Assembly (NCBI GenBank): GCA_038087875.1
Contig: CM075988.1
Coordinates: 21,516,001-21,580,000 of the forward strand
Reading direction: 5' to 3'
DNA from: Malacoraja senta
Lineage: Eukaryota
DNA length: 64,000 nucleotides
Part shown: positions 27,655-27,864 of the stretch, piece after piece
How the letters are laid out: each line of letters starts with the position of its first letter
How positions within the stretch are numbered: the first letter of the stretch is position 1
Notes under the pieces: generated by a model
The model's database searches: none
Seen by the model: the letters and a program-made list of their open reading frames with translations, nothing else
What the model was told of the DNA's origin: nothing
Program-made: the position numbers and the translations under genes

Positions 27655-27864
27655 CCCTGGCTGTCCCCTCCCCTTCATCAGCCATCTGGTTGTCTCCGCC
27701 CCTCCCCCAGCCCTCGGGCTCCTCCTCCTCCTTTTCCTTTTTTCCTTTCTTCTCCCCACCCCCTATCAGTCTGAAGAAGGGTTTCGGCCCGAAACGTTAC
27801 CTATTTCCTTCGCTCCATAGATGCTGCTGCACCCGCTGAGTTTCTCCAGCATTTTTGTGTACCT
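26930..27864 (+). mobile_element. 5'-truncated Penelope-like retroelement
   Basis: 12-bp TSD ttgatttgacta (26918-26929, 27865-27876); GIY-YIG ORF, pyrimidine-rich 3' UTR, terminal unit. Confidence 0.92.
27765..27803 (+). ncRNA. Minimal type-I hammerhead-ribozyme-like motif
   Basis: CUGAAGA (27771-27777), A, stem II GGGU-UUCG-GCCC, GAAA (27791-27794), palindromic ACGU and GUU triplet; stem I is only about 2 bp. Confidence 0.6.

What the first reader, a model, noticed from the sequence alone, without database searches (positions are those of the whole stretch)
27765..27864. Hammerhead-ribozyme-like core in the Penelope terminal unit, amplified to dozens of copies
Seen: after the GIY-YIG ORF the sequence reads CUGAAGA-A-GGGU-UUCG-GCCC-GAAA-CGUU, i.e. 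both hammerhead core boxes around a tetraloop stem II, followed by a self-complementary ACGU and a GUH triplet. Intact cores are at 6427-6454, 10206-10233, 21564-21591, 27771-27798 (+) and 18299-18326, 21265-21292, 37035-37062, 52980-53007 (-); roughly 30 or more copies in total counting decayed ones. Stem II keeps its pairing across variants (GGGU/GCCC, GGGU/ACCC, and GAGU/ACUC at 37144) while the loop varies (UUCG, CUCG, CUCA, UCCG), and N7 varies (CUGAUGA at 40454). Established: Penelope-like elements carry minimal type-I hammerheads whose short palindromic helix III is thought to work as a dimer. Inference: this genome has a very high-copy ribozyme-bearing family with at least two subfamilies. 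Caveat: helix I is only about 2 bp in these copies, so activity is uncertain.
Basis: partly seen in the sequence, partly recalled or inferred. Interest (0 to 1): 0.75.

Follow-up and report, generated by a model that had tools for sequence, protein, structure and literature searches.

The report
Minimal hammerhead in skate Penelope repeats
A roughly 140-base end-piece of a Penelope-type jumping gene is scattered 60 times through this 64-kb stretch of what is likely skate DNA and carries a minimal hammerhead-ribozyme motif of an already described kind, predicted to cut RNA only slowly and in pairs; most copies are decaying, so this is an unusually abundant new member of a known kind, not a new system.

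Summary
Confirmed, but of a known kind. The motif at 27771-27798 is the minimal type-I hammerhead (min-HHR) in the pseudo-LTR of a Neptune-clade Penelope-like element, likely from a skate. It lies 116 nt behind a GIY-YIG stop, in a 5'-truncated insertion (26930-27864) with a 12-bp target duplication. The window holds 60 pLTR fragments (9% of its bases); 30 span both core boxes, 16 keep all core bases and 9 also keep stem II and the ACGU palindrome. The same motif follows the endonuclease in invertebrate Neptune relatives, where helix I and stem II covary. One such family matches the published Acropora motif. Helix I is only 2 bp. New here: 23 of 60 copies begin at the motif's 5' edge and only 1 near the cut site, so the templates were uncut there. 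The density (9 intact motifs in 64 kb) would extrapolate far above published counts. Cleavage is untested.

The parts
26918..26929 (+). left target-site duplication, 12 bp
   Evidence: identical 12-mer at 27865-27876
26930..27654 (+). 5'-truncated Neptune-type PLE ORF: RT C-terminal region, CX4CX2C linker, GIY-YIG endonuclease, TAG stop
   Evidence: Pfam GIY-YIG E=2.5e-4, just under the curated cut-off; 58-64% identity to shark and ray PLE proteins, up to 88% over 38% of the query to a little-skate protein; linker motif
27655..27770 (+). pyrimidine-rich 3' UTR / pLTR upstream part ending in YCAGT (Inr-like or splice-acceptor-like; untested); its last GU is the 5' strand of the 2-bp helix I
   Evidence: sequence; 93% pyrimidine at -35..-6; helix I count
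27771..27798 (+). minimal type-I hammerhead, subfamily A: CUGAAGA 27771-77, bulged A 27778, stem II 27779-90 with UUCG loop, GAAA 27791-94, ACGU palindrome 27794-97, H17 27798; predicted cut between 27798 and 27799
   Evidence: fits the min-HHR consensus of PMC4209133 Fig. S3
27799..27864 (+). downstream pLTR ending at the tail-less 3' end (about +93 from C3); first two bases are the 3' strand of helix I
   Evidence: 3' ends cluster at +83..+100 (25 of 60) and +121..+131 (29 of 60)
27865..27876 (+). right target-site duplication
26317..26750 (+). direct dimer of subfamily B units, period 299 nt (C3 at 26319 intact, C3 at 26618 with G12A), with about 130 nt of family sequence after the first tail: likely an internally deleted pLTR-ORF-pLTR element
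   Evidence: in run X19 one listed contig piece spans tail to spacer (26419-26554) and about 100 contigs carry spacer variants
61087..61599 (+). subfamily B unit behind a GIY-YIG C-terminal fragment (motif has a 12-nt deletion)
   Evidence: tblastn 65% identity; alignment
42139..42409 (+). subfamily B unit behind an endonuclease end and UTR (U16.1 mutated)
6329..6523 (.). head-to-head inverted pair, one arm with tail, 15-bp target duplication; intact motif at 6427-6454 (+)
10206..10233 (+). intact motif, subfamily B
18299..18326 (-). intact motif, subfamily B
21265..21292 (-). intact motif, subfamily A
21564..21591 (+). intact motif, subfamily A
37035..37062 (-). intact motif, subfamily B, head-to-head with the G12A copy at 37144
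52980..53007 (-). intact motif, subfamily A, solo copy with 13-bp target duplication

Best explanation
This is the minimal type-I hammerhead motif in the pseudo-LTR of a Neptune-clade Penelope-like retrotransposon, copied 60 times into this window and mostly decaying, and in source elements it likely cuts RNA only slowly, when two copies pair through their ACGU palindromes and probably with help from the element's own protein. Shown here: the anatomy, the link to GIY-YIG ends, target duplications, head-to-head pairs, two 3' end classes, homology and covariation with invertebrate Neptune motifs, and neutral decay of inserted copies. Inferred mechanism: reverse transcription starts at one of two sites about 93 or 130 nt behind C3, as measured for the anole element. 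It copies an RNA that is not cut at the hammerhead. In about four of ten insertions it ends at the motif's 5' edge, most simply because the RNA starts there (an Inr-like TCAGT), giving solo or inverted pLTR copies. On a tandem transcript it runs on into the endonuclease ORF. Cleavage would then be a slow or regulated side step that trims tandem transcripts, not the step that makes the template.
For: Fits every sequence element of the published min-HHR consensus. A motif lies within 300 nt after the endonuclease in 24 of 66 related loci (strict) and 45 of 66 (relaxed), against 0 and 2 of 66 on the opposite strand and 0 of 60 upstream. The commonest invertebrate form has the same core and stems as the published Acropora digitifera Neptune motif. 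On 14 aligned motifs, pairs 2.1-1.1 and 2.2-1.2 are paired in 14 and 12 of 14, with 4 and 7 two-sided changes. Pair 10.2-11.2 is paired in 14 of 14 as G-C, A-U or G-U. Overall 82% of cells are paired against 22-45% when slid. Non-CpG core positions changed in 6 of 220 cells in B copies against 30.5 (mean) or 19.9 (median site) expected from base-matched flanks. A zebra-shark protein reads through into a peptide that the motif would encode. PLE hallmarks: 12-15-bp target duplications, 13 head-to-head pairs within 100 nt and two 3' end classes. Only 1 of 60 copies starts within +25..+31, at the cut site, agreeing with uncut RNA as the main substrate of the anole PLE (PMC11167929).
Against: No cleavage data. 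Helix I is 2 bp here against 3-6 bp in 32 of 35 scored invertebrate motifs. The monomer hammerhead fold (-4.2 kcal/mol) is less stable than an alternative hairpin (-8.0) that buries the CUGAAGA box. No Rfam hammerhead model matches. Stem II sequence in B copies is no more conserved than flanks (17 changes against 15.8 expected), and G12 is lost by CpG decay in 9 of 30 B copies. The core-conservation test is not controlled for sequence context or for trimming of damaged 5' ends. The 14 aligned motifs represent only about six lineages. Eight of nine Xenopus retrozyme dimers tested did not cleave in vitro (bioRxiv 2026.07.22.740005). The RNA-start reading of the 5' edge is untested.
Confidence: 0.68

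Rival explanations
1. The motif descends from a hammerhead but no longer cleaves in this lineage. Its core bases are kept in source elements as a promoter or protein-binding site, and helix I has eroded.
For: 2-bp helix I and a more stable competing hairpin. Core bases are conserved in B copies while stem II bases are not. Templates were uncut. Hammerhead mutants did not reduce insertion by the anole PLE in vitro.
Against: The two helix I pairs are swapped relative to invertebrate families (G-C/U-A against C-G/U-A, G-C/A-U, C-G/A-U) yet still pair. A and B keep pair 10.4-11.4 as U-G against U-A. Published PLE motifs with a 2-bp helix I exist, and the extended D. virilis one cleaved weakly.
Confidence: 0.2
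2. The short copies are a self-standing non-autonomous family (non-LTR retrozyme or SINE-like) that amplifies through self-cleaved, circularised RNA.
For: Most fragments lack ORF sequence. One direct dimer with a 299-nt period; contigs of run X19 show head-to-tail joints of the unit, 62 contigs for the best one, with the letters between not known. Retrozymes derive from pLTRs and were found in the one chondrichthyan sampled.
Against: No array of units with intact motifs in the window; the dimer's second motif has G12A. Short copies have scattered 5' junctions and head-to-head partners, which is what truncated PLE insertions give. Helix I lacks the canonical 6 bp and loop contacts.
Confidence: 0.1
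3. The pile-up of 5' ends at the motif's edge is not an RNA start. It marks an endonuclease cut used to resolve the insertion, a reverse-transcriptase stall or template switch, or a 3' splice site (pyrimidine tract plus YCAG) whose use would supply a different helix I strand.
For: 8 of the 9 copies classed as UTR-bearing end in CAGT after a pyrimidine tract. In D. virilis an intron ends at helix I. The anole enzyme cuts its own ORF-pLTR junction. One fragment, 14845-15131, stops from the other side exactly at the edge. Starts scatter over -7..+5.
Against: No shared upstream exon among 13 edge copies (longest common stretch 9 nt in 78 pairs). The invertebrate relatives have no AG at this place.
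Confidence: 0.35

Closest known systems
Minimal type-I hammerheads of metazoan PLEs (Cervera and de la Pena 2014, PMC4209133), closest entry Acropora digitifera Neptune min-HHR
   Same: CUGANGA plus bulged base, G10.1-C11.1, 4-bp stem II with tetraloop, GAAA-CG-U-H with ACGU palindrome, position in the pLTR about 100 nt after the GIY-YIG stop, Neptune clade
   Different: Helix I is 2 bp (3 in Acropora); N7 is mostly A; no cartilaginous fish among the motifs listed in Fig. S3 or Table S1; local density far above the reported 4,000-9,000 per genome
Drosophila virilis Penelope hammerhead
   Same: 2-bp helix I, CUGAAGA core, an AG acceptor close upstream, low predicted activity
   Different: D. 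virilis has a longer, bulged stem II and a small helix III, and is Penelope/Poseidon clade; its intron is shown, whereas none is shown here
Poseidon element of Anolis carolinensis (PAc; Frangieh et al. 2024, PMC11167929)
   Same: Two 3' end classes that define a tail; uncut RNA as template; no ends at the cut site
   Different: PAc's ORF starts inside the motif and its protein-assisted cleavage was measured; here the ORF start is not established and nothing was assayed
Non-LTR retrozymes (PMC7229834; bioRxiv 2026.07.22.740005)
   Same: Type-I hammerhead, pLTR ancestry, very high copy number, occasional direct dimers
   Different: Retrozymes are tandem arrays whose units each carry a complete, usually canonical motif; here copies are dispersed, truncated or inverted pLTR pieces with a minimal motif

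Membership tests
PLE minimal type-I hammerhead (min-HHR) | Core CUGANGA, one bulged base, GAAA, NUH | tested here: met
   16 of 30 box-spanning copies keep all core bases; 10 descriptor hits against 0.015 in shuffles
PLE minimal type-I hammerhead (min-HHR) | Helix II closed by G10.1-C11.1 | tested here: met
   G-C in 26 of 35 copies, the rest decayed; covariation across families at 10.2-11.2
PLE minimal type-I hammerhead (min-HHR) | Palindromic 15.2-16.2 in place of helix III | tested here: met
   ACGU in A and B majorities and in the invertebrate relatives
PLE minimal type-I hammerhead (min-HHR) | Helix I (consensus 3 bp; 2-6 bp among published examples) | tested here: met
   2 bp, the lower bound; both pairs covary across families; 2-bp cases published for Culex, three Drosophila species besides D. 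virilis forms and Oikopleura as read from Fig. S3
PLE minimal type-I hammerhead (min-HHR) | Located in the pLTR of a PLE | tested here: met
   116 nt after the GIY-YIG stop for A; B units behind endonuclease ends at 42139 and 61087
PLE minimal type-I hammerhead (min-HHR) | Self-cleavage as a dimer | not testable with these tools
   No assay; only assembled contigs were available, which cannot show RNA ends
Neptune clade of EN+ Penelope-like elements | Cys-rich CX2-5CxxC linker before a C-terminal GIY-YIG endonuclease | tested here: met
   CNRKRCNTC then IYCIRCSRCQLIYIGET in P0001; definition from PMC8557442 and PMC3846280 passages
Neptune clade of EN+ Penelope-like elements | PLE-type reverse transcriptase in the same ORF | tested here: inconclusive
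   The window copy is truncated after the RT core; 7 of 14 longer homologues carry PF00078; no RT tree was built
Neptune clade of EN+ Penelope-like elements | pLTRs, optional 30-40-nt tail, inverted 5'-truncated copy, target duplication | tested here: met
   Two 3' end classes about 37 nt apart and 13 head-to-head pairs; 9 of the 13 have one tailed arm by my reading; target duplications of 9-15 bp at 7 of 23 insertions tried, two further 6-bp hits not counted
Rfam hammerhead families (canonical) | Score at or above a family's gathering threshold | tested here: not met
   0 matches in the window at gathering; no hammerhead family among 6 matches up to E=10 in 26200-28000
Non-LTR retrozyme | At least two consecutive tandem units, each with a complete motif | tested here: not met
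   The only regular direct dimer (26319/26618) has G12A in its second unit; window only, no genome held
Non-LTR retrozyme | Circular RNA from the unit | not testable with these tools
   No run on record as RNA, contigs only

The most novel reading that the evidence does not exclude
Skates carry the densest ribozyme family yet seen in a genome: some 10^5 intact and 10^6 decayed hammerheads. The copies record that the element's RNA starts only a few bases before the catalytic core, so the 5' hammerhead has almost no helix I and stays uncut. Reverse transcription from the tail to that RNA start then gives a strong-stop-like cDNA that is inserted alone, while only the 3' hammerhead of a tandem transcript can be cut. 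A genome-wide map of copy ends would make the open question of what PLE hammerheads do directly testable.
Probability: 0.3. Interest if true: 0.6.

Novelty: new member of a known kind. Interest (0 to 1): 0.35.

Why it matters
The role of hammerheads in Penelope-like elements is still unclear (PMC8557442; PMC11167929). A family at about one fragment per kb gives a large natural record of where reverse transcription started and stopped. In this window that record says templates were uncut at the ribozyme and often ended at its 5' edge, which matches from genomic copies an in vitro result from another clade. It extends min-HHRs to cartilaginous fish in the papers I could read. If the density holds genome-wide, the copy number would exceed published min-HHR counts by more than tenfold. 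The many head-to-head pairs would also be a large source of double-stranded RNA (inference). The motif class itself is not new.

Tried and rejected
Rfam scans: no hammerhead match. No whole genome is held, so no genome-wide count. Pattern scan of viral contigs: 0; protein scan of viral contigs gave 1 weak locus, L001, left out of the counts. Copy-level stem II covariation: rejected. Longer helix I from genuine UTR: none found. Spliced exon upstream of edge copies: none shared. Intron in the dimer spacer (donor-like site at 26482 to acceptor-like site at 26616): no such joint among the 15 shown of 2,534; no RNA holder listed, three of the four laid runs are only guessed to be RNA and all are contigs, so this says nothing either way. 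ATG at 26484 as ORF start: similarity to the first 60 residues of a full-length Neptune protein was reached by 112 of 2,000 shuffles, inconclusive. Loose ends at 26317 coincide with the local copy's own truncation and were not counted as support. The depth step at the motif's edge in run X19 (3.8 million at 27761, 13.2 million at 27799) is inflated by subfamilies with other UTRs and is no copy number. 5' ends of extra invertebrate copies: 3 of 21 listed alignments start at -10..-3 in loci other than a divergent one, too few and selected by the endonuclease. The CUGAGGA...GAAA stretch at 36881 and 58053 is another repeat, not matched by model R1. Folding z-scores of nine motif stretches were unremarkable, -1.87 to +0.81, as expected for a dimer-type motif. 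Earlier scan notes: two look-ups, nothing. The Lunse et al. paper on dimer-cleaving PLE hammerheads is not held.

Full report
Observation. A strict hammerhead descriptor finds 10 matches in the window against a mean of 0.015 in 200 dinucleotide shuffles. A profile HMM built from ten window copies finds 60 fragments of a unit of about 140 nt, covering 9.3% of the window, and none in the reversed window. Four envelopes that ran into an inverted partner were trimmed by hand before alignment. Thirty fragments span both core boxes, 16 of these keep all 11 core bases and H17, and 9 also keep all four stem II pairs and the central palindrome pair. By diagnostic bases the fragments fall into A (14; mean 94.5% identical to their majority), B (39; 88%) and an older C (7; 85%). 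Rfam has no matching model.

What it sits in. The motif lies 116 nt behind the stop of an ORF with a CX4CX2C linker and a GIY-YIG domain. The linker marks the Neptune clade (PMC8557442 and PMC3846280, passages read). The closest named proteins are from sharks, rays and skates: 58-64% identity over 93% of the query, and 88% over 38% for a little-skate protein. The host is therefore likely a skate (inference). The insertion runs from 26930 to 27864 between two identical 12-mers, so the first 16 codons of the open frame are flank. Subfamily B units also follow endonuclease ends, at 42139-42409 and 61087-61599. Other PLE hallmarks are present. 3' ends fall in two classes, +83..+100 (25 of 60) and +121..+131 (29 of 60), which define the optional tail, and 13 pairs lie head to head within 100 nt. 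Target duplications of 9-15 bp were found at 7 of 23 insertions tried. The stretch 26317-26750 is a direct dimer whose spacer is family sequence continuing the tail, likely an internally deleted element. An ATG at 26484 may be the ORF start, but the homology test was inconclusive.

Is it a hammerhead? Among A and B copies, 19 of 27 changed stem II pairs break and only 2 are compensatory, and stem II changes as often as flanks (17 against 15.8). G12, part of a CpG, is A in 9 of 30 B copies, including 37144, a rate like flank CpGs (0.30 against 0.26). Inserted copies thus decay neutrally. The support comes from elsewhere. I fetched 95 loci encoding relatives of the endonuclease (80 best of 483 metagenome hits, 14 from MAG contigs, 1 viral). 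Of these, 66 had the endonuclease end and 300 nt behind it. A motif lies there in 24 of 66 by a strict pattern and 45 of 66 by a relaxed one, against 0 and 2 of 66 on the other strand and 0 of 60 upstream. In 32 of 35 scored motifs helix I has 3-6 contiguous pairs. On an alignment of 5 window and 9 outside motifs chosen for diversity, both helix I pairs that the window family keeps show two-sided changes, and pair 10.2-11.2 occurs as G-C, A-U and G-U. 82% of cells pair against 22-45% for slid controls. These 14 rows are only about six lineages, so this is support, not a probability. The commonest outside form has the same core and stems as the Acropora digitifera Neptune min-HHR in Fig. S3 of PMC4209133, and the window motif fits that figure's consensus. 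A zebra-shark protein that reads through its stop ends in a peptide the motif would encode with U at position 7. Within B copies, non-CpG core cells changed 6 times in 220, against 30.5 or 19.9 expected from base-matched flanks. This suggests selection on source elements, but it is not controlled for sequence context or for trimming of damaged ends.

Is it active? Unknown. Helix I is 2 bp with no conserved extension. The monomer fold (-4.2 kcal/mol) loses to a hairpin that buries the first core box (-8.0). Published min-HHRs did not cleave as monomers and cleaved weakly as dimers; 2-bp helix I cases exist. The anole PLE hammerhead cleaved only with the element's protein, and its mutants still inserted in vitro. 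I put slow, dimer- or protein-assisted cleavage as likely, and a dead relic at about 0.2.

What the copy ends say. By an automatic rule, 25 fragments begin within -7..+5 of C3, 9 keep upstream UTR and 26 begin further inside (1.9 against 0.28 starts per base; binomial P 1.6e-10 against a uniform model). By hand, two of the 25 (36098, 34434) keep 13-23 nt of UTR, giving 23, 11 and 26. Four solo copies with target duplications place the border at about -4..+1. Only one fragment starts near the cut site at +27/+28. So the RNAs that were copied were uncut, or rejoined, at the scissile bond, and copying often ended at the motif's 5' edge. The simplest cause is an RNA start there: the family reads TCAGT just before C3, which resembles an initiator (consensus recalled), and D. 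virilis Penelope has an internal Inr/DPE-type promoter (PMC2377424, passages). Rivals are an endonuclease cut, a stall or a splice acceptor. The acceptor look is real (pyrimidine tract plus CAG in 8 of 9 UTR-bearing copies), but 13 edge copies share no upstream exon. Sequencing runs gave contigs only and cannot decide this.

Abundance. Nine intact motifs in 64 kb is about 140 per Mb. Scaled to a 2.2-Gb skate assembly (PMC10115646, passages) that would be about 3 x 10^5 intact motifs and 2 x 10^6 fragments. Published figures are about 4,000 min-HHRs in coelacanth and 9,000 in Xenopus, and up to 120,000 retrozyme copies in axolotl. This is an extrapolation from one GC-rich window, and the published descriptors may need a longer helix I, so the comparison is loose. 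In run X19, 440,759 contig records were laid on 26300-27900, which fits a huge family but is no copy number. Six organism labels appear among the 24 listed holders of that stretch.

Comparison and novelty. It works like, and meets every sequence feature I could test of, the PLE min-HHR class; catalysis is untested. It is not a canonical Rfam hammerhead and, in this window, not a retrozyme array. Literature seen: PMC4209133 (parts 1-2 of 4 of the text, supplement file 2 parts 1-2 of 3 and a term search; file 1 not searchable); bioRxiv 2026.07.22.740005 (parts 1-3 of 5; supplements closed; it reports retrozymes in one chondrichthyan, so this family may be in its tables); PMC11167929 (parts 1-2 of 4); passages of PMC8557442, PMC2377424, PMC3846280, PMC7229834, PMC6765202 and PMC10115646. 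Six library searches listed no paper on a skate or ray PLE hammerhead. Lunse et al. is not held; I recall that it reports very many PLE-linked variants, which could include cartilaginous fish. Repbase and Dfam could not be checked. Verdict: new member of a known kind, interest 0.35; the edge rule and the density are the parts worth following up.

Noticed in passing
window 14845-15131 (-): A B-type endonuclease end plus UTR stops exactly at the motif's 5' edge and is followed by an unrelated repeat with no hammerhead: a break at the same place seen from the other side.
   Followed up: partly
L008, L009, L065, L083-L087, L090, L091, L093, L094: A U4C core variant (CCGA instead of CUGA) is shared by 12 invertebrate Neptune copies, so it looks inherited rather than decay.
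   Followed up: no
L082-L095: Fourteen Neptune endonuclease loci lie in contigs of three bacterial MAGs, 12 of them in one; probably host-animal DNA in those assemblies.
   Followed up: no
window 26452-26582: Family sequence continuing the pLTR tail, with an ATG at 26484 inside a splice-donor-like context; possible ORF start, test inconclusive.
   Followed up: partly
P0003, P0014: Annotated proteins read through into the hammerhead motif (zebra-shark type in P0003, coral type in P0014), i.e. gene models built on PLE remains.
   Followed up: partly
window 31057-33108 (-): 683-codon open frame with RVT_1 and ALKBH8_N matches, a LINE-type reverse transcriptase unrelated to the finding.
   Followed up: no
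window 46585-47233: Tandem array of a 20-nt unit, 32.5 copies, 87% matches.
   Followed up: no
window 36535-36965 and 57969-58407: A 439-nt repeat, 95% identical, in opposite orientation; it holds CUGAGGA...GAAA but lacks hammerhead geometry.
   Followed up: partly
window, e.g. 5523-5820, 11670-11980, 17497-17800, 63266-63580: Another family of about 300 nt occurs in at least 15 copies on both strands, probably a SINE or LINE end; not identified.
   Followed up: no
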